Source of the DNA: a virus
Length of the DNA stretch: 64,000 nucleotides
Strand: one strand, 5' to 3'
IMG/VR virus record: IMGVR_UViG_3300012931_000019
Span: 18,154 to 82,153 of that record
Shown in pieces: positions 26,010 to 64,000 of this stretch (positions are counted from its first letter, which is position 1; every line of letters begins with the position of its first letter). The notes under the pieces were generated by a model. The model did no database searches, had not been told where the DNA came from, and worked only from the letters and a program-made list of their open reading frames with translations. Both the position numbers and the translations under genes were made by a program.

Positions 26010-27659
26010 TTGTCTCAAAAGAGCAGTCGTTATAAAAATACTAATAAAAATATAAATACTAAAAATATTAGTTCTAATATTCAAAATGAAGAATTGTCAC
26101 AAGATGAATTATATGATGTTCTTGAATTTGCAAGGAGAGTATATAGTGGCAATATAACACCAAATGTATATACACCTGAACTTACCAATGCAAGGATGAA
26201 GGATTTAAATTTAAACCCTTTGTCTGCAACTGAAACAAATATAGAAACGGCATTAAAAGACCCTAAAAATAATGAAAGACAATTAATTGGTTACAGTGAA
26301 TTCTTTTATTTAACATCTATGATTTATAAAAGAATGCTTGGATACATAGCACAAATGCCTTCTTTTGATTATACAGTTACTTGTATTAATGCAAAGAAAG
26401 AAGATTATAAATCTGAGAAATATCAAAAAGATATGGATGCGGTTTATGGTTTCCTAGACAAGTTTGATGTTAAAAAAGAATTCAAACAAATTATGGATCA
26501 ACTACTTTTAAATGAGACTTATTATGGCGTTTTAAGAGATGAGTCAACAGATAAATTTGCATTTCAACAGCTTCCAAATGATTATTGTAAATTAACTGGT
26601 AGATGTGAATATTCTTTGTTATTTGACTTTAATATGATTTACTTTTTTAGTCAGGTTGGAGTGGATTTAAGATCATTTCCAAGGATTTTTACAGAATATT
26701 ATAATAGAGTACTTGATATGAAGAATAATGGTTATTTACCTTCTAGTACTTTAGATAAAAGAACTGGTGAATGGGTCTATTGGGTTCAAACAAGTCCTGA
26801 AGATGGCATGTTCGCATTTAAATTTAATATTGGGAATGTAACATCTATACCGTATTTTGCACCGTTGTTTTCTGATGTGGTGCTTGCTCCATTAATGAGA
26901 AATTTGCAAAAAAATGTTAATATCCTCAAGGCACAAAAAATATTAGTAGGTTTGATTCCTTTATTAAAAGACCCTAAAAGTGGAAGTGTAAAAGATGCAG
27001 TTGCTATTGAAGCAACGACATTAGGTAACTTTTTAGGACTTTTAAAAGCAGGACTTCATGAAAGCGTGAAGGTCGGCGGCGTTCCTTTCTCTGATCTAAA
27101 AGAAATAGATTTTGATACAACTAACACAAACATTATGGATGATTATACAAAGACTACCTCTGCAATGTCTGGAATAAATAGCAGATTAATATTTGCAAAT
27201 GATAAAATGTCTAATGCTGAAACGCAAGCTTCTATTGATGTTGATGAATATTTGACTCTTCATATTTACAATCAATTTAATCAGTGTATGGATTTTCAGA
27301 TTAATAAGTTAACTGAGAATTTTAAATTTAAGTTTAAATTTCAAGGAACTGAATTTAAATCAAATAGGCAATTTAGACTTGATAATGCAATTAAACTTGC
27401 TGAACATGGGGTTGTTTTATATCAACAAATTGCCGCCAGCATTGGGATTGAACCTCATGATTTTATTCGTCAATTAGAAGAAGGACAGGCGATGGGATTT
27501 GTAGATTTATTAACGCCTATGATTAGTATGTATCAAACTAATGGTAATGAATCAATAGATAAAGGTGGAAGAGAACGAAAATCTGATAATGAATTAACTG
27601 ATTCAGGTTCCGCGACTCGTGATAACGGTTCTAATTTAGGTCGAGGTGGAAAAATATGA
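26010..27659 (+). CDS. Portal protein (YonE-like)
   Basis: 549 aa directly after TerL; C-terminal KGGRERK tail typical of portals. Confidence 0.85.
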   Translation: MSQKSSRYKNTNKNINTKNISSNIQNEELSQDELYDVLEFARRVYSGNITPNVYTPELTNARMKDLNLNPLSATETNIETALKDPKNNERQLIGYSEFFYLTSMIYKRMLGYIAQMPSFDYTVTCINAKKEDYKSEKYQKDMDAVYGFLDKFDVKKEFKQIMDQLLLNETYYGVLRDESTDKFAFQQLPNDYCKLTGRCEYSLLFDFNMIYFFSQVGVDLRSFPRIFTEYYNRVLDMKNNGYLPSSTLDKRTGEWVYWVQTSPEDGMFAFKFNIGNVTSIPYFAPLFSDVVLAPLMRNLQKNVNILKAQKILVGLIPLLKDPKSGSVKDAVAIEATTLGNFLGLLKAGLHESVKVGGVPFSDLKEIDFDTTNTNIMDDYTKTTSAMSGINSRLIFANDKMSNAETQASIDVDEYLTLHIYNQFNQCMDFQINKLTENFKFKFKFQGTEFKSNRQFRLDNAIKLAEHGVVLYQQIAASIGIEPHDFIRQLEEGQAMGFVDLLTPMISMYQTNGNESIDKGGRERKSDNELTDSGSATRDNGSNLGRGGKI

Positions 27660-38960: not shown

Positions 38961-39299
38961 ATGATGACAATGAGTGATCGTTGGGTCTTTCAAAATGAAG
39001 CTACAACGACAGCAGATGGAGAAGCATTATTTTCTGGTAGATGGGATCAAGTAACTATATATATTACTGGAACTGCTACAAGTAGCACAGTAGTATTTGA
39101 AGGTTCTGACAAGGATGGAAATTGGTACAGTTTACCAGCTTTTAAAATGCCAGATTATACTTTAGCATCACAAACTACAGAACTTGATGAAGCATGGGTA
39201 ATAGATTTATCTAAATGGTATTCTGTTAGAGCGAGAATTGATTCAATTTCAGGTGGTTACATAACTATTGTTGGAAAAGTGGTGAACTCTAATGGTTAA
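38961..39299 (+). CDS. Small beta-sandwich virion protein
   Basis: TVVFEGS...VRARI motifs; coupled to the fibre gene. Confidence 0.6.
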   Translation: MMTMSDRWVFQNEATTTADGEALFSGRWDQVTIYITGTATSSTVVFEGSDKDGNWYSLPAFKMPDYTLASQTTELDEAWVIDLSKWYSVRARIDSISGGYITIVGKVVNSNG

Positions 39300-46222: not shown

Positions 46223-47827
46223 ATGTTAATTAGTAAATCAGTTATGATATCATGGAATGGGAAAAATAGGGAAATATATGAAAATTTAGGGTATAAATTT
46301 ACAAAGTGGAAAGATAAATTTGAAGTACAAATTGAAGATTTAAATATCAATAGTGATATAAAAGTGGAAGTTCGATGTGATTATTGTGGGAAAACTATAC
46401 ATGAAACTTATAGTAATTTTATAGATCATAGAAGTAAATCATATGTTCAAAAGGACGCATGTTGGGATTGCAGAAGCTTAAAAATGAAAGATAATGCTTT
46501 AAACAAAAATAAAGATAATAAATTAAATAGAAATGATGTTGGATATTGGCAAATAGAAGAAAATAGATTAAAAGAATTAGATAATTATATTAAAACTTAT
46601 GTGACAATTGATCATATGCGAAAAGACAAACTTGGATATTGTATACTTAATAGTATTTGGAGAAGTAACATGTCTGTAGATGAGTCAGTTATCAAATTAG
46701 GGTATAAAATAGAAGATGTAAAAACAATATTTAGTGTAGATATGTTTAATACATTTGATAAAATATCTGATTGTATTAATCAATATATTGAAAAATATGG
46801 TAGGTTTCCCACAATTACTGAGTGCAATGACAAATTAGGTATAACTCAAAAAGCATTAAAACAGTTTGGCGGAATACATGAAGTAAAAAGAAAAATGAAT
46901 TATAATGGAGTAAATGATTTAAAGGATGATAGAGGTTGGTATAACAAATCTTCATACGAATATATTGTAGCTCAATTTTTAATACATAATAACGTTCCAT
47001 ATAAAAGAGAACAGCGTCCATTTCCAGAAGATGAAGGAAGATATAAAAGCGATTTTACTTTTTATTTAGAAGACGAGATTATACATTGTGAAGTTTGGGG
47101 TTATTATAAAAAGCATGGAGGGTATTCTAAAATTTATATTAAAAATAAAAATATAAAGAAAAATTTATATAGAAAATATAATATAAATTATATTGAAATT
47201 GAGCCAGATATTTTTCGTGATAAATATGAAATGATATATGAGAGACTACGTAATATTTTTGAAAAAGTTTTAGGGTCTGTACATCAGGAATTTAATTTAG
47301 AAATTTTAATTCCACCAAATAAAATGACAGACGAAGAACTTTTAGAAGAAATTATGAAATATAGCGATGATAACGAATATTTACCTTCAGAAAATATATT
47401 GAGAAAATATCATAAATCTAGCATTTTTAATCAAATTATACAAAGATATGGGCATATTGACAATTTTGCATTAAAATTTAATAAAAAATCGAGAAGTTCC
47501 AAAGCTTTCAGCATTAAAAATTATGGACATAATGGCTTATTTCCTATTTATCTGGGATTCATGAATCGCTATGGAGAAATTTTTACTTTAGAAGAATTTA
47601 AACAAAAAGGAATTGGTGATTTACGTAGATATATAGATCATTTTGGTGGTTATGTTCAAAGTAAATTAGATTTTTATAGTTATTGTATTGAAAATAAAAT
47701 AACAATATCTCAAGAAGAAATTATTTGGTTAAAAAAGTTTGGAAATAATGAGTTTAAAAAACTTTATAGGCAAATAACTCCTGATCGGATTAATAAGGCT
47801 AATGAGATATTAAATTTAATAAACTGA
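46223..47827 (+). CDS. Freestanding homing-endonuclease-like protein (zinc ribbon plus PD-(D/E)xK nuclease)
   Basis: VRCDYCG...ACWDC; SSYE...YKSDF...HCEVWG; repeated helical GRFPT-type modules. Confidence 0.7.
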   Translation: MLISKSVMISWNGKNREIYENLGYKFTKWKDKFEVQIEDLNINSDIKVEVRCDYCGKTIHETYSNFIDHRSKSYVQKDACWDCRSLKMKDNALNKNKDNKLNRNDVGYWQIEENRLKELDNYIKTYVTIDHMRKDKLGYCILNSIWRSNMSVDESVIKLGYKIEDVKTIFSVDMFNTFDKISDCINQYIEKYGRFPTITECNDKLGITQKALKQFGGIHEVKRKMNYNGVNDLKDDRGWYNKSSYEYIVAQFLIHNNVPYKREQRPFPEDEGRYKSDFTFYLEDEIIHCEVWGYYKKHGGYSKIYIKNKNIKKNLYRKYNINYIEIEPDIFRDKYEMIYERLRNIFEKVLGSVHQEFNLEILIPPNKMTDEELLEEIMKYSDDNEYLPSENILRKYHKSSIFNQIIQRYGHIDNFALKFNKKSRSSKAFSIKNYGHNGLFPIYLGFMNRYGEIFTLEEFKQKGIGDLRRYIDHFGGYVQSKLDFYSYCIENKITISQEEIIWLKKFGNNEFKKLYRQITPDRINKANEILNLIN

Positions 47828-48287: not shown

Positions 48288-49373
48288 TTGGAAGTATTGG
48301 CAAAATCTAAAGTAGTTAGAGTAAAATATTTTACACCGGAAAGAATAGCATTAATAAATCCAGATAATTTAGTATTATATGAAAAGTATTTAATGTCAAA
48401 TATAATTAAGAATAAGGATGTTGAACAGACAACTTTTAAAACTTATAAGAACTCAATGCAACAGTTTTTAGTATATCTTGCAGAAAAATGGAATAATATT
48501 GGTTTATATTCTCCTGAATTCTTTGAATCCGCAGTTGATATAATGGAAGGTTTTATGGCATTTTGTGTAAATACATTAAAAAACAATAAGAAGGTTATTA
48601 ATACAAAAGTATCTTCGGTATCAACTTTTTATCTTTGGAGTATGAAAAGGAAATTGGTAGATAGACATCCTTTTGATAAAAAACTTGATAGAATGAAAGG
48701 TGCAAGTGAAGAAAAGATTATTAATTCATATTTTCTAACTGATGAACAGGTAACAGAAATTAGGCGTGGTTTATTAACCGATAAAAAATATGATATTCAA
48801 GACCAATTAATTTTTGAACTGTTTTTAGATAGTGCAAACAGAGTTGGGGCGCTAGACAAAATAACACTATCATCTATGGACTTGGAAAATATGGTTTTCA
48901 ATGATATTAGGGAAAAGAGAGGTTATAAGGTCGAAGTAGCATTCTCTGAAGCAACGAAGGATATTATTAAAGAATGGCTTGAAATGAGAAAAGACATGGA
49001 TAACCTTGACATTGATGCAATATTTTTAACTCGATATAATGGAAAATGGAACAAGATGACATATGGCACGATTCAAGATAGGATAAAACGTATTGGATAT
49101 ATTATTGGTTTAGAAGATTTTCATTGTCACTGTATGAGAAAAACAAAGCTTAACGATATTTATGTTAAAACTGGCGATCTTGCTCTTGCCGCAGAGTATG
49201 GAAATCATAAATCTACAGAAACGACAAGACAAAGTTATATAAAGCCAAAAAGTAAAACAGAAATCAGAGCTAAAATTAATGAGATGATGCAAAAGAATAA
49301 TGAGATAAAGGTAGAAATCGTTGACGAACCTATTGAAATTCCAACAGAATCATCTTCAGAAGAAAATCTTTAA
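48288..49373 (+). CDS. Tyrosine recombinase/integrase (YomM-like position)
   Basis: ANRVG (R), K, HCMR, GNH, SYI: full catalytic set. Confidence 0.9.
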   Translation: MEVLAKSKVVRVKYFTPERIALINPDNLVLYEKYLMSNIIKNKDVEQTTFKTYKNSMQQFLVYLAEKWNNIGLYSPEFFESAVDIMEGFMAFCVNTLKNNKKVINTKVSSVSTFYLWSMKRKLVDRHPFDKKLDRMKGASEEKIINSYFLTDEQVTEIRRGLLTDKKYDIQDQLIFELFLDSANRVGALDKITLSSMDLENMVFNDIREKRGYKVEVAFSEATKDIIKEWLEMRKDMDNLDIDAIFLTRYNGKWNKMTYGTIQDRIKRIGYIIGLEDFHCHCMRKTKLNDIYVKTGDLALAAEYGNHKSTETTRQSYIKPKSKTEIRAKINEMMQKNNEIKVEIVDEPIEIPTESSSEENL

Positions 49374-49469: not shown

Positions 49470-50095
49470 ATCTTTTTTTGTTCTGATTTGTAGTAAGGCT
49501 TGCTATTAGTGTAGTGAGCCTTACTAAAGCAAAATAAATGGCATAGAAGGAGTATTTTATCGGTTTTATATCGACTAAAATAAAAAATAAGTTTTAGATT
49601 TGTATTATGGCTTAACGCCGCCACGAAAGAGATTTAAATTATCTGAGGTTTGGAAAAGGTAGCCAACACCACACCTAGAAGCTTAGTCGGACGAATGTGC
49701 CGATAGTGCGGAATCACAGAAACTTCCCTATATTTTCAATGATGCATTGAATAGTACGCTAGGGTACGATAAAGAATGTTAGGAGATGCAAGAGTACCGT
49801 CTTGCCAGATAATTTAGATATAAAGATAGGTCATTTGTGACCATGTCCATTAATTGCAATAATGGGGTTGACAGAATACGCCTACTACTGGCGTAATAAA
49901 TAAGTAGATTTTAGGTCTTTGAAGGCCATGTTGGTATGTTGGGCGAACTTCCCACGTGAAGTTGAGGTAGTAGACTATGACGATAGTCGAGGGTGGTTAC
50001 ATAAAATTAACAGTTCGGAAAATCTGAACGAAAGGGTAGAGAAGACAGGAGCAATGTTTTGTTAGTTTTAATGCGAAGAAAAGCCTGTCTGATAC
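49470..50095 (+). ncRNA. Candidate structured non-coding RNA(s)
   Basis: No credible ORF; GC-richer than flanks; long hairpin 49491-49526; closing helices TAAATTATCTG/CAGATAATTTA and AGATAGG/CCTGTCT. Confidence 0.5.
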
Positions 50096-50103
50096 ATATA
50101 TGA

Positions 50104-50179
50104 TGGGACTTGGTGAAGATGGCCTAACACAGCAGGTTTTGATCCTGCCATTTCGAAGGTTTAAATCCTTCAGTCCTAG
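50104..50179 (+). tRNA. tRNA-Gln (anticodon TTG), atypical T-loop, no encoded CCA
   Basis: Acceptor TGGGACT/AGTCCTA, D stem GTG/CAC, anticodon arm GCAGG-TTTTGAT-CCTGC, T arm GAAGG-TTTAAAT-CCTTC. Confidence 0.8.
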
Positions 50180-52197: not shown

Positions 52198-52803
52198 ATG
52201 AATGTTGAAAATTTGCCGGATATAGTATATCATGGTACAATATCTATTTATAAGAAGAGTTTACTTGATGGTATAAATTTGAAAAAGGGCAATGAATGTG
52301 TTGATTTTGGGCAGGGATTTTATACTACTACAAACTTAGAGCAGGCTAAATATTTTTCAATTACCCAAAGCAAGAAGAATAATATATTTCAAGAAAGTAT
52401 GAAGTCTAGAAATAATGAATGGATTCCTAGATATTCCAATCCATTAATTATAGGTTATAAAATTAATAAGGTATTATTAAAAAAATATTATGGTTTGTTT
52501 TTTAGTAATTGTGATGTTAGATGGGCGGAATTTATATACAACAATAGGTTAGGTATTGACTTTTTGATTTCCAATTATCATAATATAGATAAGAAATATG
52601 ATTTTATATATGGATTTATGGCTGATGCAGATATTGCAAATATTATCCAAGATGTAAAATTAAGAAAAATTGATTTTGATAGATTTGCTGAAGCAATTCA
52701 ACCATTTGATCAATATAGTCAAGATCAACTATCATTTCATACAAAAAATGTTTTACAATGTATAGAATATGCTGGTGATATTAATTTAAGAAAGGATGAT
52801 TAG
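52198..52803 (+). CDS. DUF3990-like protein (ART-like fold)
   Basis: YHGT...DFGQGFYTT...W..FI..NR...YD.I.G.MAD...QLSFH. Confidence 0.8.
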   Translation: MNVENLPDIVYHGTISIYKKSLLDGINLKKGNECVDFGQGFYTTTNLEQAKYFSITQSKKNNIFQESMKSRNNEWIPRYSNPLIIGYKINKVLLKKYYGLFFSNCDVRWAEFIYNNRLGIDFLISNYHNIDKKYDFIYGFMADADIANIIQDVKLRKIDFDRFAEAIQPFDQYSQDQLSFHTKNVLQCIEYAGDINLRKDD

Positions 52804-53014
52804 TATGTATAACATTGCTAATGCTTCTGAAAAAATGTTAAATTATGTAACAAACGAAATTGCTACTAATTATCATTTTGGTAAAAAAGAAGCTAAAAAT
52901 ATGGTTCAAAATTCAGCATTTATGATAATGTTAAAAGAAGAACCAGATTTTGTATTTCATTATAATGTTGAATATTGGGCTAAAGAAATTATTAATGAAC
53001 ATACATTGAATTAA
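52796..53014 (+). CDS. Small partner protein (DUF3791-like)
   Basis: Overlaps the DUF3990-like stop; helical, FHY..EYWA motif. Confidence 0.55.
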   Translation: MISMYNIANASEKMLNYVTNEIATNYHFGKKEAKNMVQNSAFMIMLKEEPDFVFHYNVEYWAKEIINEHTLN

Positions 53015-53112
53015 TATACTATATTGCTCACCTTTTAGTTTATCTAAATGTTCGTGAGCCAGCGTAATTTTTAGTATGGGAATGGATGTCGTTCCCACAG
53101 ATCGTTTATATG

Positions 53113-53146
53113 AAAAAAGACTTCTACATATAATGAAGTCTTTTTT
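53113..53146 (+). terminator. Intrinsic (possibly bidirectional) terminator
   Basis: AAAAAAGACTTC-TACATATAAT-GAAGTCTTTTTT. Confidence 0.75.
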
Positions 53147-53215
53147 ATTTTTCTAGCAAATTGATGAGCTTTCATATATAATACATATATAAATTATGTA
53201 TATGGAGGTTTTATT

Positions 53216-53803
53216 ATGTTGATTAATTGTCCAGAATGTAATAAAGAAATTTCAGATAGGGCGGTAAATTGTCCTAATTGCGGATATCCTTTAAATGAAA
53301 TACCTGCAATTAAAAGCAATGATAATAAATTAGTTTATCCAGATTTCCCAGAAGATTTGTCATTGGGAGATTCTCTTGTGAAACTTTGCTCTGGATTTAC
53401 AATACATGACGAGATCATTAGTAATATTCCAGAATTCAATAACGGTCGTATTAGACTTGATTTATATAAAAATGGTATAAAAGCATCGAATAATAATATT
53501 TCCATTTTGATTCATAAATCTCAAATAATCTGCCTGTCTGAAGAAAAAAGAACAGAAATAGCGGAGAAAAATAAATCAGTAATCGGCAGGGCAATTGTGG
53601 GCGGAATTTTAACTGGCGGCATAGGTGCTGTTGTTGGTGGTGTTTCTGGCGTTGGTACAAAGAAAGAAAAAGTAACTAAATATTATTTAACATTAAAATT
53701 TTGGGATATAAATATTAGGGAAATAAAAACCATAACTAGTATTGGATTAATGACTGATGAATTTTTTATTAATCGATTTAACAAAGAAATAATGAAAAAA
53801 TAA
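53216..53803 (+). CDS. Zinc-ribbon protein with glycine-zipper membrane segment
   Basis: CPECNKEISDRAVNCPNCG; KSVIGRAIVGGILTGGIGAVVGG. Confidence 0.8.
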   Translation: MLINCPECNKEISDRAVNCPNCGYPLNEIPAIKSNDNKLVYPDFPEDLSLGDSLVKLCSGFTIHDEIISNIPEFNNGRIRLDLYKNGIKASNNNISILIHKSQIICLSEEKRTEIAEKNKSVIGRAIVGGILTGGIGAVVGGVSGVGTKKEKVTKYYLTLKFWDINIREIKTITSIGLMTDEFFINRFNKEIMKK

Positions 53804-53933
53804 TAAATGCATGAAAAGGCTTTTAATTATTAGAAGTCTTTTTTTATTCATATTAATAACTAAATATATAAATAATTTTGAGAAGTGTTTTATTTCACTT
53901 CTCTTTTATTTTGCAAGGAAAGGAGAAGTGAAA

Positions 53934-54663
53934 ATGAATGATATTTCAATTAAGATAAAAGCTATTCTAGATCAAACCGCATCAACTGGTAATATTGAAA
54001 GTCAAATCAAACAGATTCAAAAAAAGTTAGATAATTCACCTTTAAAATTAAAATTAGATGAAAATTCCATAAAAAACACATTTGATAAAGATGGCAAATT
54101 AACAAAATCTATATATAAAGTAAATGATGCTTTAAATGGTCATTACACTGTTGTGCAAAAAGCAAGCAAAGTAACAGGAGAATTAGAAACTGCACAAATT
54201 AAGTTATCTACGGCAAATGATAAAGCAGGTCAGAGTTTTTCCAATATTTTGAAAAAAATTGGGACTTGGGGTGTAGCCACTGGAATTCTGTACGGCGGAC
54301 TTCGACAAATTTCGACTGGCGTGGATTACATAATCGAACTTGATAATTCCATGAATGAAGTTCAAATTGTAACAGGATACACAAAGGAAAAAGTCGATGC
54401 TTTAGCACAATCTTATAATGAACTTGGCAAACAGATGAAGGTAACAACTTCAGAGATTGCCGCTACTTCTGCTGATTTATATAGACAGGGTTTAACTGAT
54501 GCGGAAGTTACTGATCGAATGAAAGGTATTATTGAATATGCTAAAATTTCAAGTATTTCATTAGAAGATAGTAATAAGATTATAACTGCAACGGCAAATG
54601 CCACTGAACGTTCAATTGAGAATATAACAGATATTTTCGCTTATTTAGGCGATACAACTGCAT
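53934..54663 (+). CDS. Tape measure protein, exon 1
   Basis: AAGGAG RBS and ATG at 53934; TMP motifs (ELDNSMNEVQIVTG, LYRQG); ends GCA-T at a group I 5' splice site. Confidence 0.9.
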
Positions 54664-54963
54664 GAAAAACCTCGTGCCTTATAATGGTAACATTATAATG
54701 ATAATTTAGTGAACTATATTACTCATAGGTGTATAATCAACATTTTGTAATAGTAGGAAATGACTATGAATGATTATGCTAACAGGGGAGCCTAAGTTAG
54801 AAATAATATGGTAATCCTGTGCCAAGCTTCGTAATTGAAGAAGGTTAAACGACTATCCCATAGGGGAGTACATTGGAAGATGAGTTGCCAATGGAAGTGC
54901 TAAACAACCATAATATTTGGTTGATGATATAGTCTACACACATAGAAATATGTGATAAAAGTG
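54664..54963 (+). ncRNA. Group I intron 1 (300 nt, no ORF)
   Basis: P1 GCAU/GUGC with U.G; P7 GACTA 54851 with TAGTC 54930; terminal G; removal restores the frame. Confidence 0.9.
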
Positions 54964-55054
54964 CAGGTGCAGATGAAATTGGCGAAGCTCTTCAGAGAGT
55001 AGCTTCTGCCGCAGACAATTCAAATTTAAGTTTAGAAAAAACAAGCTCATGGTT
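54964..55054 (+). CDS. Tape measure protein, exon 2 (91 nt)
   Basis: (S)GADEIGEALQRVASAADNSNLSLEKTSSW(L). Confidence 0.88.
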
Positions 55055-55352
55055 TAAATTGTAGACCCTTAGTATAGTAATATACTAATGCAAAGTTGGC
55101 TTTTATCGGAAAAAAACCTATAGGCAGGTCAATTCCGAGGATAAGATTAGTATTGTTAAAATATTAAAATCCGTAACGACTATGTACTGTAATAGTAATA
55201 TTATGGTCACGCCAACCTTCCTAATTATAGGAAGATGATATAGTCTGAACTGCATTTATAGCCTAAAAAATAAAGATGCAGAAGTAGGAAGAAACTCCTA
55301 TTCGCCATATTTTATATGGTCAGTACCTAATTTTAGGGAAAGTAACAGACTG
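55055..55352 (+). ncRNA. Group I intron 2 (298 nt, no ORF)
   Basis: P1 GGUU/GACC; P3 GTTGGC/GCCAAC; P7 GACTA 55178 with TAGTC 55241; ends AAGTAACAGACTG. Confidence 0.9.
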
Positions 55353-55658
55353 AGCAACAATTTCCAGCGTTTCAAGAGAAACGGCTTCCACGATCGGACG
55401 AAGCTTAAACTCAATTATCAGCCGATACGAAAGTATAAAAAAGACAGGATTTTCTAGTGAAGATAGCACTCAATTAAATGATGTGACAAAAGCTCTTTCT
55501 TCAATTGGTATAAATCCAACTGTAAATGGACAACTTCGCGATTTGGGAGTAGTCATGGATGAAGTTGGAGCGAAATGGAACACATTAAGTAAAAATGAAA
55601 AAGCTTATATAGCGACTACAATGGCGGGAACCTATCAACGTAATAGATTTATAACCCT
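55353..55658 (+). CDS. Tape measure protein, exon 3 (306 nt)
   Basis: ATISSVSRETASTIGRSLNSIISR...AGTYQRNRFIT(L). Confidence 0.88.
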
Positions 55659-55900
55659 AAAATTTGGGGCTTTAATAGCATAATACATAAACTATTAAAG
55701 AAAATTTTCTCTAATAAATTTACGAAACTCCAGAAGTGGACAACGTAGTGGAAGTTTACACACCAGCAGAGACTAAATGAGAAAACTTCATGTTAATGAA
55801 GATGTAATAGTCCGAACTCATGATATAACTTAATCATGAAACATGAGAAGTATGAAGAAATTCATATTCGCCTAGTAATAGGTTATAAAGTAACAGATTG
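55659..55900 (+). ncRNA. Group I intron 3 (242 nt, no ORF)
   Basis: P1 CCCU/GGGG; P3 TTTTCTC/GAGAAAA; P7 GACTA 55771 with TAGTC 55808; ends AAGTAACAGATTG. Confidence 0.9.
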
Positions 55901-58733
55901 AATGAATAATTACGATGATAGTTTAAAAAATTATGACAATGCTCTTAATGCGGCTGGTCAAACACAAAAGAAATATGATACCTATCTTGAATCAAGTCAA
56001 GCTCACATAGACGAACTCACTACATCTATGCAAGGGATGTGGCAAGATACAATGTCTTCTGAGCAATTAAAAACTTTAATTGATTTTGGAACAGGAATTG
56101 TAAATATTATTGATAAAATCGGATTATTGAATATTGCGGCAGTAGCATTATTTGGTATATTAGGTGGTCGTGGTATATTAACAACTGTAGTTAATTTAAT
56201 TCCTCTTACAAAAAGTTTGGCTTTAAATATTGGTATTCTTGCATCTAATATGGGAGTGTCTGAAGCGGCGGCTGTTACTTTAGCCAAATCCCTTTCAGTT
56301 ATGGTTCCTGTAGCCGCTATTTTAGCTGGAATAGCTATAATAGATTATTTAACAGAAGCTTTAGATAGGCAAAAAGAATCTGTAGCAGATTTATCAAACA
56401 AAATTCAGACCTTAACATCTGAACGAGATTCATTAAATCAAAAAATGTCAGAGGGTGCATTAATCGATTCAGAATCAAAAAGATTGGAATTACTTAATGC
56501 CGAAATAACTGCAAATCAAACGCTTTTGAAACAAGAAGACGAAAAGTTGTATAAGATGGAACAACAGTCTAATCTTCCCACAACTAATCAAATGTCTTGG
56601 ACTAGTTATTATACAACAGATAGCGGCTTAAAAAGTGCTGTAGATGAATACAACAGTCTTAACGAAGCAACTGCAACTACTCTTGAACAGCAAGACGAAA
56701 TGAAAACGCGTAAAGCTGAACTTATTAAAGAAATGACTACGGAAGTAGGACAGCTTCAAGCTCATATTGATTTAGGAACAGAGCTTACAGATGTAGATGC
56801 CAAACGGCTTGATCAGATGAATGCAATTATCGAAGCCTACAATAAGCAAACCGAGGCCGAGAAAGCCGCTGACGAAGCCGCAACTGAAACTCAGACAGTA
56901 CAGCAAAAATTAGCGGAACAATTTTCTAATGGTGAAATTTCTTTAAAAGATTATATATCTAAATTAAATGCTTTAAAAGCATCGTCTAAAGAATATGAAG
57001 TGCAAGCATACAATTTAGGTGAAGCTAGTACATTTTTAGCTTCAATTTCCGATAAAGTTACTAATGCTCAGTCTCTTACCGAAGATGAAGTAAAACAATT
57101 GACATCTTTATATCCTGATTTACAAGGTGCTATATATGAAACGGCAGATGGATGGTCAGTAGAAAAAACGGCGGTTGATTTATTAAATACTAGTGTCACA
57201 TCATTACAAACAGCTTACATGGATGCTCAAAATGCAATGACAGAATTAGCGGCTATTTCGGTTGGTGAAAGACTTAATATTACTGATACAGAATTAGCGG
57301 CTGTACAGTCTGTGGCTGATGCATATGCGACTCTTGCCGGAAAGAAAAGTAGTACTGGAACGGGATATACGGAACATGAATTAAAAATGCTGAATATCAA
57401 CGATCCAACGGTAATGAATACGCTTGCATTAGGTAAGGCTAGAGAAACGATAAACGCTTTGAAGAAGAATTTAGGAAGTATTAATACTAAAGCATTGGAT
57501 TCTTCTTCTTCCAAATCTTCCTCCGACGAATATGACTGGTTTGACGAAATGCTTTCCACTTCCAAGCAATACATAGAGAATCGTGATTTATATGGTGATT
57601 GGGATAAATATGGGGATTCAGCAGTATCAGCATGGGAAAGAATCAAAAAATATACCGAACAGTATTATAAAGATGGAAAAATTAGTTATGAGAAATATGC
57701 TGATGTAATTAATGATATTGATCAATCTTTATATACAGCTAAGAAAGACGCAATCCAGTCAGCCTATGAAGCGGAAGTCGAATACCAACAAAAGCTAATA
57801 GAATCCCAAAAAGACGCTCTTGAAACAGAACTAGAAGCAACGGATGCTCAATATGATAAACACATTGCAAAACTTCAAAAGAAATTAGACGCATTAAAAG
57901 ACGAAGAAGAAGAACAGGACAAACTTCTTGCCATCGAAGAAGCCAGAGAAGATTTAGAAAATGCAAAATCTGATACATCATATCGGGTTTATAGCCAAGC
58001 AACGGGATGGCAATGGACTTATAATCAATCTGCGGTAGATGAAGCGCAAGAAGCTCTAGATGACGCTCAAGAAGAATATGACGACTATGAGGCAGAAGCC
58101 AAACTTGAAAAACAAATATCTAAATTAGAAAAAGCCCAGAAAAAGAATGAAGAAAATATTAATGCTCAGATTGATGATCTTGATGCGCTTGCTGAAACAT
58201 GGGAAAACAGTTTAGATATTAGTGCAGATACAGCAACGTATACAAGTCAATTAGATGCATTGTTAGCTGTTGAAAACTCCAGTTATGCTAGTAGACTCGA
58301 AGCGGCACAAGCTTTTGCGACGGCATATAAGAAAGCATTAAATGGAATAGGACAAACTTCAACGTCTTCAACAACCACAACTACTTCAACCACATCCACA
58401 ACATCAGCAGATTCAACTAATGTTAATACTTATGGTGAAGGTGGACATGTGAATACACCTCAATTAGCGGTAGTCGGAGATACAAGCGAATGGATTATAC
58501 CAGATTCAAATATGCCTTCATTTGTAGATTTAATAGGTAGTAATATAATGAATAATATGTTGAGCAACATTACAGCATCTATGCCATCTATTACTCCAAT
58601 AAATCGTAATACATCAACTGACAGTAGTTCTCATATGACTATTCAGAACATGACTATTCAGGCAAATAATCCCAATCAGTTTGCAAATAAAATGAAAAAT
58701 CTTGTAGCAATTACAGGAAATATGACTAATTAA
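55901..58733 (+). CDS. Tape measure protein, exon 4
   Basis: (L)MNNYD..., hydrophobic segments, long coiled coils, C-terminal YGEGG...VVGD.SEWIIP. Confidence 0.9.
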
Positions 58734-58749
58734 GGAAGGAGCATGAATT

Positions 58750-61074
58750 ATGCTATTTCAACCTACTTCACCATACCCAGAACAAACAGCAATTGATGCA
58801 ACAGCAAGCAATACATTTTCATGCTACTTGAATGCTGAAGGCGGTACGCAAATAACCGAATATGATTTAACCATTAATGATTTAGATGGTAATGAAATAT
58901 ACACAACGGGGGACACAACATTGTCTCCCGTTTTATATAATAAAAATACTTTATCTATAACCGTTCCAAGTACAAGCGGAATGACTAACGGATATGATTA
59001 TGTTTGGAATATTAAACTATATGAAACGAATCCGACAATTTGGGTTACATACGGCACAGTTCAAGCAACAAGTACAACTACGAATGTTTATTTAAGAATA
59101 TCTTATCTTATTGAGGCAGGAATGTATTTAAAAATTGGCAATCAGATCAGATTAATTTCGACTTATGATTCTGATACGGGACTTGCTGTAGTTTCAACCG
59201 CATTTTCAACCGCACCTTCAACTGGCGCACAATATAATATTTATACAAATTATGTGGTTAGTGATGATATTTATTTTAAAGCCAGAGCATTACCCGTAAT
59301 TTCAATTACAACTTATACCGCAACAGTAACAAATAAGGCGTTTACATTTACCGGAAGTTATACTCAATCGGATAATGTAGATTGGAAATATTATACTTTT
59401 AATCTATATGACAGTAGTGGTGAATTATTAGACACTACCGGAGAAGTGAATACTGGTACAATTTCTTATACATTTGATGGATTTTTAACTGGTACAAGTT
59501 ATAGTATTGAATTGGTTGTAGAAACGCAAGATGGGACAAGCGTAACTACTGGACTGGAATCATTTTCTGTTTTATATGCTATAACTACAGTATTTAATAA
59601 TCAGGTTGTTGCTGAATGTTTAATGGCTAAAGATGCTATGCAAGTATCATGGGGAAATCCGTATACAAATTCTTATACACTTACGGGTACAACTTCGCCT
59701 TATTATGAATACTTAGAAGATACTCCCCAAACTGATCAAACATCTGTTTCTTTATATAGTGGTTCAGAGTTATTATATGAAATTGGAAACTCATTAGGTG
59801 CAGTAATTGTACCATATAATTCAACAACATCTTTTAGAACAAGATTACCAATTAGTTTTCAAGGCGATATTATTAGTCTAAATAATGCTGTGGACGAAAG
59901 TTATTATATATTATCTTATACCGATGGTACTTTCTATTATGATATTAATAACTTATACACCGGCAGTATTAAAATTCAAGATGGAAGTGCAACATGGCTT
60001 TTAGGTTCAACTTATGATGAATATACGAACTATGTGTGGGATGATACTCAAACATGGAACGATTCTTTATATTTTTATGAACAAACTGCAGATTTCTTAA
60101 ATACTCATTGGTGTGAATTTACTCTACTTCCAACAGGTATATTGCTTACTTTAATTCCGGTTTCAGATTTAAATTCATCTACTGATTATACGCCTGATAC
60201 TACGTCTACTTCGTCTGGAAGTATTCCTAATGGATATTATACATTAACACTCTACGGACAACAAATTTGCGATTATGTTTGGGTGTGTAATAAAGTATTT
60301 TCTACTTCTGAAATAGAAGCCACTACACCTATTGGATTTGAGCCAACATGGGATACATATACAATGCTAATGGCTTTATATAATGATAATCTAAATGCTG
60401 GAAGTATAGGAACTATTACAGAAGGTGTAACTGATTGGTCTGTATATCGTCAGATAGTTGGAGATACAAGATTATATTTTGTAGAAACAGTTGATGTAGC
60501 AACAACTCAGGTTATTGATTACAACGTAGCTAATCAAACATCATATATTTATCATTTATTCCCAATTACAGCGAGTACTATTGGTGGAGTCTTAAAATCA
60601 GAATCAACTACAACAGATTGGTGGAATTGGTCATTAACTGGTATTTTAGAATCTTCAGATGATGAAAATATCTATTATGCTGATGCTGATAATATTTGGT
60701 TGTTTAGATTAAATTTAAAATCTAATAGTATAGATCAAAATTTAGACATTACTACATACGAAGGATTCACACAGTATTCTAAAATTAGCAAAGGTTTTAG
60801 AAATTATATGACAGGTTCAATTACTTGCTTATTAGGTGATGTTGAAAATGTGGAATATATAAATGATACTGTACAAAAACAAAAAGATTTTGCATCATTC
60901 GTTTTAAGCACGGAATTAAAAGTATTAAAAGACCCGAAAGGGAATATATGGTTAATTGATACAATTTCAAATTCATACAGTATAATAGATGAAATCAGTC
61001 AACAGCCGACTATGTTAAATTTCGAGTGGCATGAAATTGGGGATTTATCGGAAATTTCAATAATAGAATCATAA
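58750..61074 (+). CDS. Tail/baseplate protein with Fn3-like repeats (YomH-like)
   Basis: T/Y-rich beta domains; C-terminal KVLKDPKGNIWL; follows the tape measure gene. Confidence 0.75.
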   Translation: MLFQPTSPYPEQTAIDATASNTFSCYLNAEGGTQITEYDLTINDLDGNEIYTTGDTTLSPVLYNKNTLSITVPSTSGMTNGYDYVWNIKLYETNPTIWVTYGTVQATSTTTNVYLRISYLIEAGMYLKIGNQIRLISTYDSDTGLAVVSTAFSTAPSTGAQYNIYTNYVVSDDIYFKARALPVISITTYTATVTNKAFTFTGSYTQSDNVDWKYYTFNLYDSSGELLDTTGEVNTGTISYTFDGFLTGTSYSIELVVETQDGTSVTTGLESFSVLYAITTVFNNQVVAECLMAKDAMQVSWGNPYTNSYTLTGTTSPYYEYLEDTPQTDQTSVSLYSGSELLYEIGNSLGAVIVPYNSTTSFRTRLPISFQGDIISLNNAVDESYYILSYTDGTFYYDINNLYTGSIKIQDGSATWLLGSTYDEYTNYVWDDTQTWNDSLYFYEQTADFLNTHWCEFTLLPTGILLTLIPVSDLNSSTDYTPDTTSTSSGSIPNGYYTLTLYGQQICDYVWVCNKVFSTSEIEATTPIGFEPTWDTYTMLMALYNDNLNAGSIGTITEGVTDWSVYRQIVGDTRLYFVETVDVATTQVIDYNVANQTSYIYHLFPITASTIGGVLKSESTTTDWWNWSLTGILESSDDENIYYADADNIWLFRLNLKSNSIDQNLDITTYEGFTQYSKISKGFRNYMTGSITCLLGDVENVEYINDTVQKQKDFASFVLSTELKVLKDPKGNIWLIDTISNSYSIIDEISQQPTMLNFEWHEIGDLSEISIIES

Positions 61075-61091: not shown

Positions 61092-62426
61092 ATGGCGTTA
61101 ACTTATGATGATTATATAAAAGCAATTAAAAGCAAAATTATTCAACCTGTTTTTCGCTTTTCTCTTCTTAATCCAGATGAAAGCGTGAAACAAGATATAT
61201 CAGAATATCTCATTAATGGAAGTGGTTCTTTATCAATAAATTATCAACAAGGGCAAAGAAGGAGTTTAAATTTTGCACTTAGGAATCCGGGTGGAATTTG
61301 GACTCCTAATGCTAATACTAATAATATGTGGATTGGAACAAAATTCAAATTAGATTTAGGAATCCGAATAAAATCGACGTTTTATGTTGACACCTTAGAT
61401 GGGGGAACTGCAAGTTCCACTTTTGCTGATACAGTAGATGGTGGTTCTGCAAGTTCATCTGGTTCAACTATTATAAACGGTGGAGTAGCTAGATGGGAAA
61501 TAGGTTCTGATGGTACAAGTACATATTGGTATTCTAATGGTGTGTTTCCAATTGGTGATCCAAATTCGACGCATAATAATTCAGATAAACAGGTATCCAT
61601 TCAATGTTATGATAAGTTCGCTTTATTAGATGGAACTTTAGGTGGTGTCACGGAAGGAACTTATACTATTTCATCAGGGACAAATATAAAACAAGCTGTG
61701 GCTGATATATTAATGTCGGACAATGGTAATGGATATCCCATTGATATGAAACCATTGATATTTGATAGTAGATATGCAAGTACTGTAACTTCTTATACTA
61801 TAACTAAAAGTCCGAATAGTAGTCTTGGAGAAATTATAATAGAGTTAGCTAATATGATTTCTTGTGATGTTTATTATAATGAAAGTGGAAATTTGGTTTT
61901 TCAAGCTGGAATTGATGACATTGCTCATATTAACAAACCTACTTTATGGACTTATTCTGATAGTGAATTGGAATATATAAGTTCAAATTTAACCCATAAT
62001 TTCAGTAAAGTTAAAAACCGAGTTACTGTATTTGCTACAAATTCAAGTACTAATGTAAGTTATTCTGCATTGTCAGAAAATACAAATCCAACTTCTCCAA
62101 CACGAATATCAAAGATTGGAATTAAAAATTATTACCTAGAAGATAACAATATAAGTTCAGATGATTTGGCTCAAGATAGAGCAGATTATGAACTAAATAA
62201 ATTAGCAATTGTACAATTAACCAATAATTTACAATCTACATATATGGCACATTTAGATGTAAACAAATGTATCGCAGTAAGCGATACTTTTTTTGGTTTT
62301 AAAGATACGAGGTTTATTATACAATCTCTTGATATACCATTGGAAACTGGAAGTCAAATTGACATTACAGCTTCTAATATTGCAGAGTTGCCATTCTATG
62401 ATTCAACAACAGGATCAACATCGTAA
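61092..62426 (+). CDS. Tail tip/baseplate hub protein (YomG-like)
   Basis: RRSLNF, CYDKFALLDG, YYNESGNLVF, HLDVN motifs. Confidence 0.75.
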   Translation: MALTYDDYIKAIKSKIIQPVFRFSLLNPDESVKQDISEYLINGSGSLSINYQQGQRRSLNFALRNPGGIWTPNANTNNMWIGTKFKLDLGIRIKSTFYVDTLDGGTASSTFADTVDGGSASSSGSTIINGGVARWEIGSDGTSTYWYSNGVFPIGDPNSTHNNSDKQVSIQCYDKFALLDGTLGGVTEGTYTISSGTNIKQAVADILMSDNGNGYPIDMKPLIFDSRYASTVTSYTITKSPNSSLGEIIIELANMISCDVYYNESGNLVFQAGIDDIAHINKPTLWTYSDSELEYISSNLTHNFSKVKNRVTVFATNSSTNVSYSALSENTNPTSPTRISKIGIKNYYLEDNNISSDDLAQDRADYELNKLAIVQLTNNLQSTYMAHLDVNKCIAVSDTFFGFKDTRFIIQSLDIPLETGSQIDITASNIAELPFYDSTTGSTS

Positions 62427-62442
62427 AGGAAGGAGTGTGGAT

Positions 62443-62679
62443 TTGTTGGATATTAGTGAAGACGAATTAATTGAGTTAATAAGAAAAATCGTTAAACAAG
62501 AAATAAAAAATAATTCATCAAATATAGAGTATTCGTATTACGGAAAAGTTTATTCAACCAATACGGATGGCACTTTTAATGTTCAGAATACTTCGGATGG
62601 TGGAATTTATACGAATTTATTAAATCAAACAGGAGCATCTCTTTCTGTGGGAGATGTAGTGAAGATTTCGGCAAAAGGT
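62443..62679 (+). CDS. Small tail-tip OB-fold protein, 5' exon (interrupted)
   Basis: AGGAG RBS and TTG start; YGKV...DGTFNV...LSVGDVVKI; reaches a P1-type splice site after AAAGGT. Confidence 0.65.
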
Positions 62680-63070
62680 GACAAAACAGATAATAAATTA
62701 TATATCTGTTTAGCCTCGTATGTACAGAAATGTGCATAGGACACAGTTTTAATTGCAAGTAATTCCTAAAGCTCTCATGCCACAACATAAGGATGAAAAA
62801 TGCCTAAGTGTGATGGAACGAAAGTAGAAAAAAGTTGAGAGATGGCATATGGTTAAATCCTAAGTGCTTTAAATGGATGTTTATGCAACCAAACTTCGAA
62901 TAGAAGAAGGCTCGACGGTCAGATAGAAATATCGTACCCTCAAGTGAGGGGAAATGGACTGCCCTTAACATATAATGGTGAAGGTGAAGACATGACCTGC
63001 GCTCATATGAAAGTATGAGAAGTTCGAAAGAGAACTGCATAGAATTAACGACTCTATGTGAACAAGTATG
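62680..63070 (+). ncRNA. Group I intron ribozyme core (intron 4)
   Basis: P1 AGGU/GCCU; AATTGCAAG..., P3 CAGTTT/GGACTG, P7 GGTCA 62917 with TGACC 62993, P9 hairpins; 3' splice site not determined. Confidence 0.8.
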
Positions 63071-63185
63071 AAATTATAAAAAGTTTTCTTTAATAGAATT
63101 TATAAAAAATATTAAATAATAAGTCATTAAATAAGAATGTTTGATATCATTCTTATTTTTATGCAATCAAGGAGAAGCAACAAAA

Positions 63186-64000
63186 ATGATAAAAGGATTT
63201 AGAATTCAAATATATCCAAATGAATTTCAACGAGAACAAATAATTAAATTTTGTAATGCGGCTAGGTTTGCTTATAATTGGGCGATAGCTACCGAAGAAG
63301 AAAATTATAAGAATGGGGGAAAGTTTATATCTGGATATGATTTATGTACGAGATTTACAGAATTTAAAAGACAAGAAGAAAATAAATGGTTAAAAGAAAT
63401 ATCGGGAAGAGCATGTAAAGTTGCTATATTAAATGCCGCTAATGCATATGAAAGGTTTTTTAAAAAGATATCTGATAAACCTAAATTTAAATCCAAAAAA
63501 TATAGTAAGATGAAATGTGCAACACATGAAGGTACTATACAGTTTACATCTAATAAGGTCAGATTGGAGAAATTAGGCTGGGTTAAGTTGGCACAGAAAA
63601 ATAGAATTCCAATTAGTGAAAATATAAAATATTTAAATCCAAAAATAGAGTATGATAAGATTAATTTTTGGGTTTCTGTTAGTGTTTATATTATTGATAA
63701 TCAAGATAATAATAAACCAAAAACAGAAGCTATAGGAATCGATTTAGGAATTAAACAATTAGGTATTTGTTCAAATGGAATAAAATTAGATAAACCAGAT
63801 ATTAAGAAACTGAAAAAGAAACTTAAAAGACTTCAAAAACAAATAAGTCGACATTATCAAAAAATGATTGATGAAAGTAAACAAACGAAAATCAAGTTTG
63901 AAAAACTTCCTAAATCAAAGAATTTACTTAAACTTGAAAAAGAAATAAAAAAACTATATATAAAAATAGATAATATTCTTACAACAAATATACATGAATT
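63186..64000 (+). CDS. tnpB: TnpB nuclease, IS607-type (truncated by window end; not in ORF track)
   Basis: MIKGFRIQIYPN...ARFAYNWA...PKFKSKK...IGIDLGIK (RuvC-I); frame open to 64000. Confidence 0.9.
   Translation, partial: MIKGFRIQIYPNEFQREQIIKFCNAARFAYNWAIATEEENYKNGGKFISGYDLCTRFTEFKRQEENKWLKEISGRACKVAILNAANAYERFFKKISDKPKFKSKKYSKMKCATHEGTIQFTSNKVRLEKLGWVKLAQKNRIPISENIKYLNPKIEYDKINFWVSVSVYIIDNQDNNKPKTEAIGIDLGIKQLGICSNGIKLDKPDIKKLKKKLKRLQKQISRHYQKMIDESKQTKIKFEKLPKSKNLLKLEKEIKKLYIKIDNILTTNIHE

What the first reader, a model, noticed from the sequence alone, without database searches (positions are those of the whole stretch)
53934..58733. Tape measure gene interrupted by three ORF-less group I introns within 1.25 kb
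Seen: three stop-containing inserts (54664-54963, 55055-55352, 55659-55900). Each has a U.G P1 helix, P3, a GACTA/TAGTC P7 and a terminal G. Removing them joins T|CA, TT|A and CT|A and gives 730+91+306+2833 = 3960 nt, one 1319-aa frame with continuous TMP motifs (ASGADEIGEALQRV, WLATISSV, RNRFITLMNNYD). Known: phage group I introns mostly sit in DNA-metabolism genes and often encode homing endonucleases. Inference: an essential tail protein needs three splicing events, including a 91-nt micro-exon, so splicing could gate tail assembly. The unspliced RNA gives a 243-aa N-terminal product. Skipping exon 3 alone (306 nt) would keep the frame and could give a shorter tail.
Basis: partly seen in the sequence, partly recalled or inferred. 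Interest (0 to 1): 0.85.

Follow-up and report, generated by a model that had tools for sequence, protein, structure and literature searches.

The report
Tape measure gene with three introns
A phage tail-length (tape measure) gene is split by three small self-splicing group I introns. The case is real and tidy, but of a kind already described in other phages, so it is a new example rather than a new phenomenon.

Summary
Removing 54664-54963, 55055-55352 and 55659-55900 gives one 3960-nt, 1319-codon frame.

- **Collinearity:** the exon pieces hit consecutive parts of one tape-measure domain, PF10145 positions 3-89, 93-118 and 129-201.
- **Intron-less homologues:** two align without gaps across all three joints at 49-52% identity.
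- **Intron identity:** all three inserts match Rfam's group I model at 61, 40 and 22 bits. Only intron 1 passes the curated cut-off. Each follows a U paired to G in P1, ends in G, and carries GACUA/UAGUC P7 strands. Folding recovers P1-P9 for introns 2 and 3.
- **Relatives:** related introns carrying endonuclease or other long ORFs lie at neighbouring sites of homologous genes and show compensatory helix changes.

Splicing itself is untested, because no RNA run was listed. The claims that splicing gates tail assembly, or that exon skipping gives a shorter tail, are arithmetic or speculation only.

The kind is known. Bacillus cereus-group prophage tape-measure genes carry group I introns at three sites (PMC2504315). 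Phage Twort's tail-tube gene has three introns, a micro-exon and exon skipping (PMC10136302, PMC11878797).

Verdict: new member of a known kind, modest interest.

The parts
53920..53925 (+). Ribosome-binding site AAGGAG, 8 nt before the ATG at 53934
   Evidence: Read directly from the sequence.
53934..54663 (+). Tape measure exon 1 (730 nt, ends in phase 1 with U)
   Evidence: PF10145 positions 3-89 at 35 bits (cut-off 33.2). TIGR01760 positions 5-130 at 41 bits (cut-off 28.8). Homologue alignments start at residue 1-2.
54664..54963 (+). Group I intron 1 (300 nt, ORF-less). P1 54660-54665/54672-54677 with U54663.G54674. P2 54680-54686/54691-54697. P4 54782-54787/54815-54820. P5 54790-54792/54810-54812. 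P6 54821-54823/54843-54845. P7 GACUA 54851-54855 / UAGUC 54930-54934. P7.1 54856-54859/54864-54867. P7.2 54871-54876/54888-54893. P8 54905-54910/54918-54923. P9 54939-54944/54949-54954. Terminal G 54963. P3 is not resolved.
   Evidence: RF00028 at 58.2 bits in the whole-window scan and 61.2 bits in the single-insert scan, against a gathering score of 50. Helices come from folding. The core shows blastn similarity to intron regions of other phages.
54964..55054 (+). Exon 2 (91 nt)
   Evidence: PF10145 positions 93-118 and TIGR01760 positions 133-158, directly continuing exon 1.
55055..55352 (+). Group I intron 2 (298 nt, ORF-less). P1 55051-55056/55062-55067 with U55054.G55064. P2 55069-55076/55081-55088. 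P3 55095-55100/55211-55216. P4 55106-55111/55133-55138. P5 55116-55119/55126-55129. P6 55139-55142/55169-55172. P7 55178-55182/55241-55245. Extra hairpin between P7 and P3' 55186-55194/55199-55207. P8 55217-55223/55228-55234. P9 55250-55257/55274-55281. P9.1 55283-55289/55296-55302. A further hairpin 55304-55310/55314-55320. Terminal G 55352.
   Evidence: RF00028 at 39.8 bits, E 6e-9, below the gathering score of 50. Full architecture from folding with the P7 strands held open. Against the L081 intron, 4 of 8 P2 pairs and one P1 pair changed on both sides.
55353..55658 (+). Exon 3 (306 nt)
   Evidence: PF10145 positions 129-201, the end of the domain.
55659..55900 (+). Group I intron 3 (242 nt, ORF-less). 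P1 55655-55660/55664-55669 with U55658.G55666. P2 55670-55678/55692-55700. P3 55705-55711/55779-55785. P4 55721-55724/55744-55747. P5 55729-55732/55737-55740. P6 55748-55750/55759-55761. P7 55771-55775/55808-55812. P8 55786-55791/55796-55801. 3' hairpins 55818-55824/55833-55839, 55849-55856/55861-55868 and 55870-55874/55879-55883. Terminal G 55900.
   Evidence: RF00028 at 22.4 bits, E 8e-4 in the single-insert scan and 5.6e-5 over the 82-kb record, below the gathering score. Architecture from folding. Its 5' part matches the ORF-bearing intron of L080 (nhmmer E 8.6e-7). That comparison shows both-sided changes in P2 (1 pair) and P8 (2 pairs). Its 3' domain is related to intron 2 (nhmmer E 4.9e-5).
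55901..58733 (+). Exon 4 (2833 nt, including the stop codon)
   Evidence: Open frame. Homologues P0002 (56% identity), P0004 and P0005 continue through it.

Best explanation
The region is a single late gene for a TP901-type tail tape measure protein of 1319 aa. It belongs to a large phage from a wetland metagenome: an 82-kb record, about half complete, 30% G+C, probably infecting a Bacillota host.

**Structure.** Three ORF-less group I introns of 300, 298 and 242 nt interrupt its conserved N-terminal domain.

**Inferred mechanism (not shown here).** Each intron folds on the late transcript into a group I ribozyme. A P1 helix, in which the last exon U pairs with a G of the internal guide sequence, selects the 5' splice site. 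An external guanosine attacks there. The freed exon then attacks after the terminal G and joins the exons exactly. Only RNA that has lost all three introns gives full-length protein. Unspliced RNA stops at the TGA formed at the first exon-intron boundary.

**Origin.** The introns are most simply selfish passengers. They look like derivatives of mobile introns that target the most conserved DNA of tape-measure genes. Relatives with endonuclease or other long ORFs sit at neighbouring sites of homologous genes. Introns 2 and 3 are related to each other.
For: **Shown**
- Removing the introns gives one exact 1319-codon frame.
- The exon pieces hit consecutive parts of PF10145 (3-89, 93-118, 129-201) and of TIGR01760.
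- Intron-less homologues P0004 (49% identity over residues 22-588) and P0005 (52% over 99-546) align with no gap at joints 244, 274 and 376.
- Metagenome locus L003 (54% identity) is also continuous across all three joints. L079 (61%) spans residues 108-446 in one alignment.
- RF00028 matches are 61.2, 39.8 and 22.4 bits with E 2e-15, 6e-9 and 8e-4.
- Each P1 has U.G at the splice site, and each intron ends in G.
- With the P7 strands held open, folding yields P1-P9 including the long-range P3 for introns 2 and 3.
- Both-sided base-pair changes against relatives occur in P1, P2, P8 and P9.1.
- Relatives at nearby sites:
  - L018 has a 945-nt intron with a LAGLIDADG ORF (PF03161, E 6.5e-33).
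  - L065 (RF00028 61.8 bits) and L040 (50.3 bits) have ORF-less introns near the MAG|T site.
  - L080 and L081 have introns homologous to introns 3 and 2, each with a long ORF.
- The empty site 1 in L003 matches the joined exons here at 25 of 26 nt by eye.
- An independently assembled 64-kb Logan contig carries the same sequence.

**Inferred:** self-splicing itself, and the selfish origin of the introns.
Against: - No RNA evidence is available. No run on record as RNA was listed, so splicing is not shown.
- Introns 2 and 3 score below Rfam's gathering score of 50.
- P3 of intron 1 is weak, and thermodynamic folding did not recover it.
- Intron 3 lacks the extra helices between P7 and P3' that intron 1 has, and its P6 is only 3 bp.
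- Many 'broken' pairs come from sequence-only alignments of diverged hairpins. Covariation support is therefore limited to a few helices and rests on pairwise comparisons.
Confidence: 0.87

Rival explanations
1. One or more of the inserts, most likely intron 3, is a decayed group I intron that no longer splices. The tape measure gene would then be a pseudogene, and the record a defective or decaying phage.
For: Intron 3 scores only 22.4 bits and intron 2 only 39.8 bits, against a gathering score of 50. P6 of intron 3 is 3 bp, and P3 of intron 1 is poor. The record is a fragment of unknown viability.
Against: All four exons keep an intact frame with no other lesion. All canonical helices, U.G and the terminal G are present. 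The helices of intron 3 are kept by compensatory changes relative to L080. That pattern is not expected for decaying sequence.
Confidence: 0.07
2. The introns have a regulatory or isoform-generating role. Splicing efficiency would time or limit tail assembly. Alternatively, exon 3 (306 nt), flanked by the two related introns 2 and 3, is sometimes skipped, giving a tape measure 102 aa shorter.
For: Skipping keeps the frame, because both joints are in phase 2. Introns 2 and 3 share a related 3' domain and the same ending, AAAGUAACAGAYUG. Twort orf142 skips a 23-nt exon flanked by two highly similar introns (PMC10136302). About 47% of phage SIOphi polymerase transcripts skip an exon (PMC11878797).
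Against: Nothing here bears on splicing kinetics or isoforms. Exon 3 encodes conserved PF10145 positions 129-201. Close homologues do without the introns altogether, so no conserved regulatory need is apparent.
Confidence: 0.05
3. The split is a metagenome assembly artefact: intron-like sequence from other genomes joined into the gene.
For: The source is a metagenome assembly.
Against: A 64-kb contig from a separate assembly of run X2 covers 53800-56300 with no differences, joints or loose ends, although it may derive from the same sample. Three precise, frame-restoring insertions with matching P1 pairings are not what a chimera produces.
Confidence: 0.01

Closest known systems
Group I introns TMP-IVS1, -IVS2 and -IVS3a/b in tape measure genes of Bacillus cereus-group prophages (Tourasse and Kolsto 2008, PMC2504315)
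   Same: Same host gene family. Introns lie at several sites of the gene. Most lack a complete homing endonuclease gene. Subclasses are IA. Related introns sit at different sites, with P1 adapted to each site. Stop codons fall at or near the intron start.
   Different: Those prophages carry at most two introns per gene, whereas this gene has three within 1.25 kb. I could not test whether any of the three sites coincides with IVS1-3, because the figures are not held. No detectable DNA similarity to Bacillus records was seen.
Staphylococcus phage Twort orf142 (Landthaler and Shub 1999, as described in PMC10136302 and PMC11878797)
   Same: Three group I introns in one tail structural gene (tail tube). 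There is a very short internal exon. Two of the introns are highly similar, and exon skipping between them was observed.
   Different: A different gene (tail tube, not tape measure). The micro-exon is 23 nt against 91 nt here. Splicing was shown experimentally in Twort and not here.
Clostridium phage c-st tape measure gene, annotated as two CDS (CST131 and CST130)
   Same: A large clostridial phage. The two tape-measure CDS are separated by a 369-nt stretch that contains a UAGUC motif and sits inside the same conserved domain. Tourasse and Kolsto list c-st among phages with similar introns.
   Different: A single insertion at another site, near residue 286 of this protein.
Multi-intron polymerase and terminase genes of Bastillevirinae (PMC11878797), and Cluster J mycobacteriophage capsid and tail introns (PMC3706429)
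   Same: Phage genes split by two or three group I introns. Introns in virion genes are spliced during late expression.
   Different: Different host genes. Many of those introns carry endonuclease genes.

Membership tests
Group I catalytic intron (Rfam RF00028) | Covariance-model score at or above the curated gathering score (50 bits) | tested here: inconclusive
   Intron 1 passes at 58.2-61.2 bits. Intron 2 scores 39.8 bits (E 6e-9). Intron 3 scores 22.4 bits (E 8e-4, or 5.6e-5 over the record). Both are below the cut-off but statistically significant.
Group I catalytic intron (Rfam RF00028) | 5' splice site after a U that forms a U.G wobble in P1 with the internal guide sequence | tested here: met
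   P1 pairings are GCAU|GA/UCGUGC, GGUU|UA/UAGACC and CCCU|AA/UUGGGG. Unconstrained folding recovers them.
Group I catalytic intron (Rfam RF00028) | Terminal guanosine at the 3' splice site | tested here: met
   G at 54963, 55352 and 55900.
Group I catalytic intron (Rfam RF00028) | Core P3-P8 with the P7 pseudoknot, in the order P3-P4-P5-P6-P7-P3'-P8-P7' | tested here: met
   Complete for introns 2 and 3. For intron 1, P4-P8, P7.1 and P7.2 are clear, but P3 is weak and comes only from the Rfam alignment.
Group I catalytic intron (Rfam RF00028) | Excision restores the host reading frame exactly, as judged against intron-less homologues | tested here: met
   Ungapped alignment of P0004 and P0005 across all three joints. 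L003 is continuous across them and L079 spans residues 108-446.
Group I catalytic intron (Rfam RF00028) | Guanosine-dependent self-splicing | not testable with these tools
   No run on record as RNA was listed. An experiment is needed.
Mobile group I intron with a homing endonuclease gene | An endonuclease ORF inside the intron | tested here: not met
   No + strand ORF of 30 aa or more lies in any of the three introns, and every frame has stops. Relatives do carry ORFs: a LAGLIDADG ORF in L018, and ORFs of 601 and 343 aa with no Pfam family in L080 and L081.
TP901-type tail tape measure protein (PF10145 / TIGR01760) | Family domain above the curated cut-off, and collinear across the pieces | tested here: met
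   Exon 1 alone passes both cut-offs (35 against 33.2 bits, and 41 against 28.8 bits). Exons 2 and 3 continue the profile in order.
TP901-type tail tape measure protein (PF10145 / TIGR01760) | Position in the tail module, upstream of the distal tail genes | tested here: met
   A downstream gene at 61092-62426 matches tail-protein phrog_1887 (E 7e-33). The portal gene lies upstream at 26010-27659. No tail chaperone pair was identified directly upstream.

The most novel reading that the evidence does not exclude
Related ORF-less introns may have spread to new sites inside the tape-measure domain by reverse splicing guided only by the short P1 pairing. Because introns 2 and 3 are related, they might also cooperate to skip exon 3 and produce a second, shorter tape measure, and so a second tail length.

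The lead for the first part is that intron 3 here and its ORF-bearing homologue in L080 share the same guide (GGGG pairing CCCU), and both are followed by AA. They nevertheless sit about 83 codons apart in homologous genes.
Probability: 0.05. Interest if true: 0.65.

Novelty: new member of a known kind. Interest (0 to 1): 0.3.

Why it matters
**Annotation.** Gene callers report this gene as fragments. The 943-aa exon-4 ORF stands alone in the protein database, and several relatives are called only from the Met just after the third joint. Recognising the introns restores a 1319-aa tape measure protein. By the usual rule of about 0.15 nm per residue, which is my own background knowledge, that predicts a tail of roughly 200 nm.

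**Biology.** The case adds to the evidence that the conserved N-terminal domain of TP901-type tape measure genes is a hot-spot for group I introns. It does not open a new question.

Tried and rejected
- **The look-up of encoding contigs:** I could not fetch the contigs of P0002, P0003 and P0006.
- **RNA evidence:** no RNA holder was listed for the stretch. Laying the two DNA runs gave one identical contig from X2 and nothing from X1, with no joints.
- **Rfam 'evalue' mode on longer stretches:** it listed no group I match in 53800-59000 although intron 1 scores 58 bits there. It also listed none in 62380-63250. I treat that mode as unreliable above about 350 nt and used single-insert scans instead.
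- **RF00028 search of the phage's own record:** it returned only intron 3 and one weak hit at 9.2 bits. It is not a census of introns.
- **Single-protein scans of viral contigs with P0002 and P0004:** nothing found.
- **Seven-sequence alignment:** too diverse for a genome-contig scan. A three-sequence alignment worked.
- **Paenibacillus larvae pPLP3 split tape-measure gene (H25):** the two CDS overlap, so it looks like a frameshift and not an intron.
- **Promoter and terminator scan of 53000-59200:** nothing above chance.
- **Rejected alternatives for the inserts:**
  - Inteins: stops in all frames.
  - Stop-codon recoding: 3-15 stops per frame in each insert.
  - Group II introns: no such Rfam match.
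- **Not done:** I did not build a custom covariance model. The ORF-bearing relatives exceed the 400-column limit, and the pairwise comparisons answered the question.
Full report
**Observation**

The four proposed exons are 53934-54663, 54964-55054, 55353-55658 and 55901-58733. They sum to 3960 nt and translate to 1319 residues plus a stop, with no internal stop. The joint codons are T|CA, TT|A and CT|A.

The three inserts are 300, 298 and 242 nt long and 30-33% G+C. Each has 3-15 stops in every forward frame. None holds a forward ORF of 30 aa or more.

The ATG at 53934 has AAGGAG 8 nt upstream. Homologue alignments begin at residue 1-2. The unspliced reading stops at a TGA made of the last exon base and the first two intron bases.

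**One gene, not several**

Scanned separately, the exon translations match consecutive parts of one Pfam domain, PF10145. Exon 1 covers positions 3-89, exon 2 covers 93-118 and exon 3 covers 129-201. TIGR01760 (tape_meas_TP901) is covered at 5-130 and 133-158.

A database search with the exon-4 product found two full-length proteins that carry PF10145. Aligned to the joined translation, P0004 matches residues 22-588 at 49% identity in one alignment. P0005 matches residues 99-546 at 52%. Neither has a gap at joints 244, 274 or 376.

Locus L003, from a 143-kb metagenome contig (54% identity), is also continuous across all three joints. L079, from a Bacillota MAG (61% identity), spans residues 108-446 in one alignment.

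**The inserts are group I introns**

- **Rfam.** RF00028 matches intron 1 at 58.2 bits in the whole-window scan and 61.2 bits alone, against a gathering score of 50. Intron 2 scores 39.8 bits with E 6e-9. Intron 3 scores 22.4 bits with E 8e-4, or 5.6e-5 over the whole 82-kb record.
- **P1.** Unconstrained folding recovers a P1 helix for each intron. In it the last exon U pairs with a G. The pairings are GCAU|GA with UCGUGC, GGUU|UA with UAGACC, and CCCU|AA with UUGGGG.
- **Core.** With the GACUA and UAGUC strands of P7 held open, folding gives introns 2 and 3 the full canonical order. That order is P1, P2, a long-range P3 enclosing P4-P6, then P8 between P3' and P7', and then 3' hairpins.
- **Extra helices.** Intron 1 shows P4-P9 plus two hairpins between P7 and P3' (P7.1 and P7.2), as in subgroup IA. 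Its P3 is weak and comes only from the Rfam alignment. Intron 2 has one such hairpin and intron 3 has none. Subgroup assignment is my inference.
- **Similarity to known phage introns.** The only blastn similarity of the whole gene to 50,697 phage records lies in the cores of introns 1 and 2. The matches fall in or beside intron-bearing genes of unrelated phages, for example next to HNH endonuclease and thymidylate synthase genes of Vibrio phages.

**Comparative evidence**

Introns 2 and 3 are related to each other in their 3' domains. nhmmer gives E 4.9e-5, and both end in AAAGUAACAGAYUG.

Relatives fetched from metagenomes and MAGs carry related introns at other sites of the same domain:

| Locus | Source | Insertion | Site |
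|---|---|---|---|
| L018 | 148-kb contig, 68% identical protein | 945-nt intron with a LAGLIDADG ORF (PF03161, E 6.5e-33) | between MAG and TFQRNR, 25 nt upstream of site 3 |
| L065 | metagenome | about 300-nt ORF-less intron, RF00028 61.8 bits | same MAG\|T site as L018 |
| L040 | metagenome | intron, RF00028 50.3 bits | after IAG, about the same site |
| L006, L013, L020 | metagenome | insertions of about 1.5-1.8 kb, not scored as introns | begin close to the same point: the alignments end at residues 366-368 |
| L081 | MAG contig | intron whose 5' part is homologous to intron 2, with a 343-aa ORF | 5 nt downstream of site 1 |
| L080 | Clostridium sp. MAG | intron homologous to intron 3, same CCCU/GGGG P1, with a 601-aa ORF | GRSL\|NS, about 83 codons upstream of site 3 |
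| c-st | Clostridium phage | 369-nt gap between two annotated tape-measure CDS | near residue 286 of this protein |

L018 also shares an upstream tRNA and skipping-rope RNA with this window.

Where the pairwise alignments are reliable, helices are kept by changes on both sides:

- Four of eight P2 pairs, and one P1 pair that tracks the different exon (intron 2 against L081).
- One P2 pair and two P8 pairs (intron 3 against L080).
- One P9.1 pair (intron 2 against intron 3).

Many 'broken' pairs in that table reflect sequence-only alignment of diverged hairpins. This support is real but limited.

The unoccupied site 1 in L003 matches the joined exons here at 25 of 26 nt by eye. Homing sites typically lie in such conserved DNA.

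**Context**

The window is the last 64 kb of an 82,153-nt virus record from a wetland metagenome, rated about 49% complete. A portal gene lies at 26010-27659. Tail genes lie at 39292-41679 and 61092-62426. A 64-kb contig from a separate assembly of run X2 carries 53800-56300 without any difference or alternative joint, although it may come from the same sample.

**Mechanism**

The shown parts are the gene structure, the ribozyme-like folds, and the conservation of exons and helices.

The inferred part, from the established chemistry of group I introns, is that each intron removes itself from the late transcript by two guanosine-initiated transesterifications. Only fully spliced RNA would then yield the 1319-aa protein.

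No RNA data could be found, so splicing is not demonstrated. I put the probability that these are three functional self-splicing introns at about 0.87. The main rival is that at least one of them has decayed (0.07).

Skipping exon 3 would indeed keep the frame. There are precedents for exon skipping between similar tandem group I introns: Twort orf142 and the phage SIOphi polymerase gene (PMC10136302, PMC11878797).

Against a functional role, exon 3 encodes a conserved part of the domain, and close homologues lack the introns altogether. Nothing here speaks to regulation. I rate a functional role at about 0.05.

**Comparison with what is known**

Tourasse and Kolsto (2008, PMC2504315) described group I introns at three sites of the tape measure gene in B. 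cereus-group prophages. From their text as read:

- A prophage carries up to two introns per gene.
- Most of the introns lack a complete endonuclease gene.
- They belong to subclasses IA1 and IA2.
- Related introns at different sites have adapted P1 helices.
- Stop codons lie at or near the intron start.

Twort's tail-tube gene has three introns and a 23-nt exon. Cluster J mycobacteriophages splice introns from capsid and tail genes (PMC3706429).

The present case is therefore a new member of a known kind. What is particular to it is three introns in one tape-measure gene. None of the three sites was occupied in the other loci I examined. I could not compare the sites with IVS1-3, because the paper's figures are not held.

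Noticed in passing
window 62715-64000: A fourth group I-like core. The Rfam-supported intron of L010 (50.6 bits) matches 62715-62958 by nhmmer (E 8.7e-12). Directly downstream, ORF 63141-63998 runs off the contig end and carries HTH_OrfB_IS605 and OrfB_IS605 domains, i.e. a TnpB-type protein. Together they look like an IStron at the 3' end of ORF 62293-62739. The Rfam 'evalue' scan listed nothing there, but that mode also missed intron 1.
   Followed up: partly
window 49638-49813 and 50104-50179; L018 185-258, 585-824 and 2551-2679: A skipping-rope RNA (RF02924, 44.7 bits) and a tRNA lie about 4 kb upstream of the tape measure gene. The related contig L018 has the same pair plus a HEARO RNA (RF02033, 117.8 bits) upstream of its tape measure gene.
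   Followed up: no
window 46223-47827 and 48288-49373: Between the tail genes and the tape measure gene lie two ORFs. One has an N-terminus matching a homing-endonuclease PHROG (phrog_12131, E 2e-19) but no Pfam family. The other is a tyrosine-integrase-like ORF (phrog_1 and phrog_216, E about 1e-21). Free-standing nucleases near ORF-less introns can mobilise them, which I did not test.
   Followed up: no
window 52198-53803 and 53880-53903: Accessory-looking ORFs sit directly upstream of the tape measure gene, where tail chaperone genes would be expected: 201 aa, 72 aa and a 195-aa zinc-ribbon-like protein. They are followed by a terminator-like hairpin with a T-run at 53880-53903, just before the tape-measure RBS.
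   Followed up: no
L082 (Clostridium phage c-st, NC_007581.1) 2023-2391: The c-st tape measure gene is annotated as two CDS, CST131 and CST130, separated by 369 nt. The exon translations abut near residue 286 of this protein, and the gap contains a UAGUC motif. It is probably an unannotated group I intron. I did not score it with a covariance model.
   Followed up: partly
L080 4252-4883 and L003 5632-6053: In-frame gaps of 420-630 nt in the N-terminal, poorly conserved part of two homologous tape measure genes. They could be length variation or further insertions. I did not examine them.
   Followed up: no
L006 3815-4118: A strong group I intron match (RF00028, 80.1 bits) lies about 1 kb upstream of the first detectable tape-measure homology in that locus. 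Its host gene was not identified.
   Followed up: no
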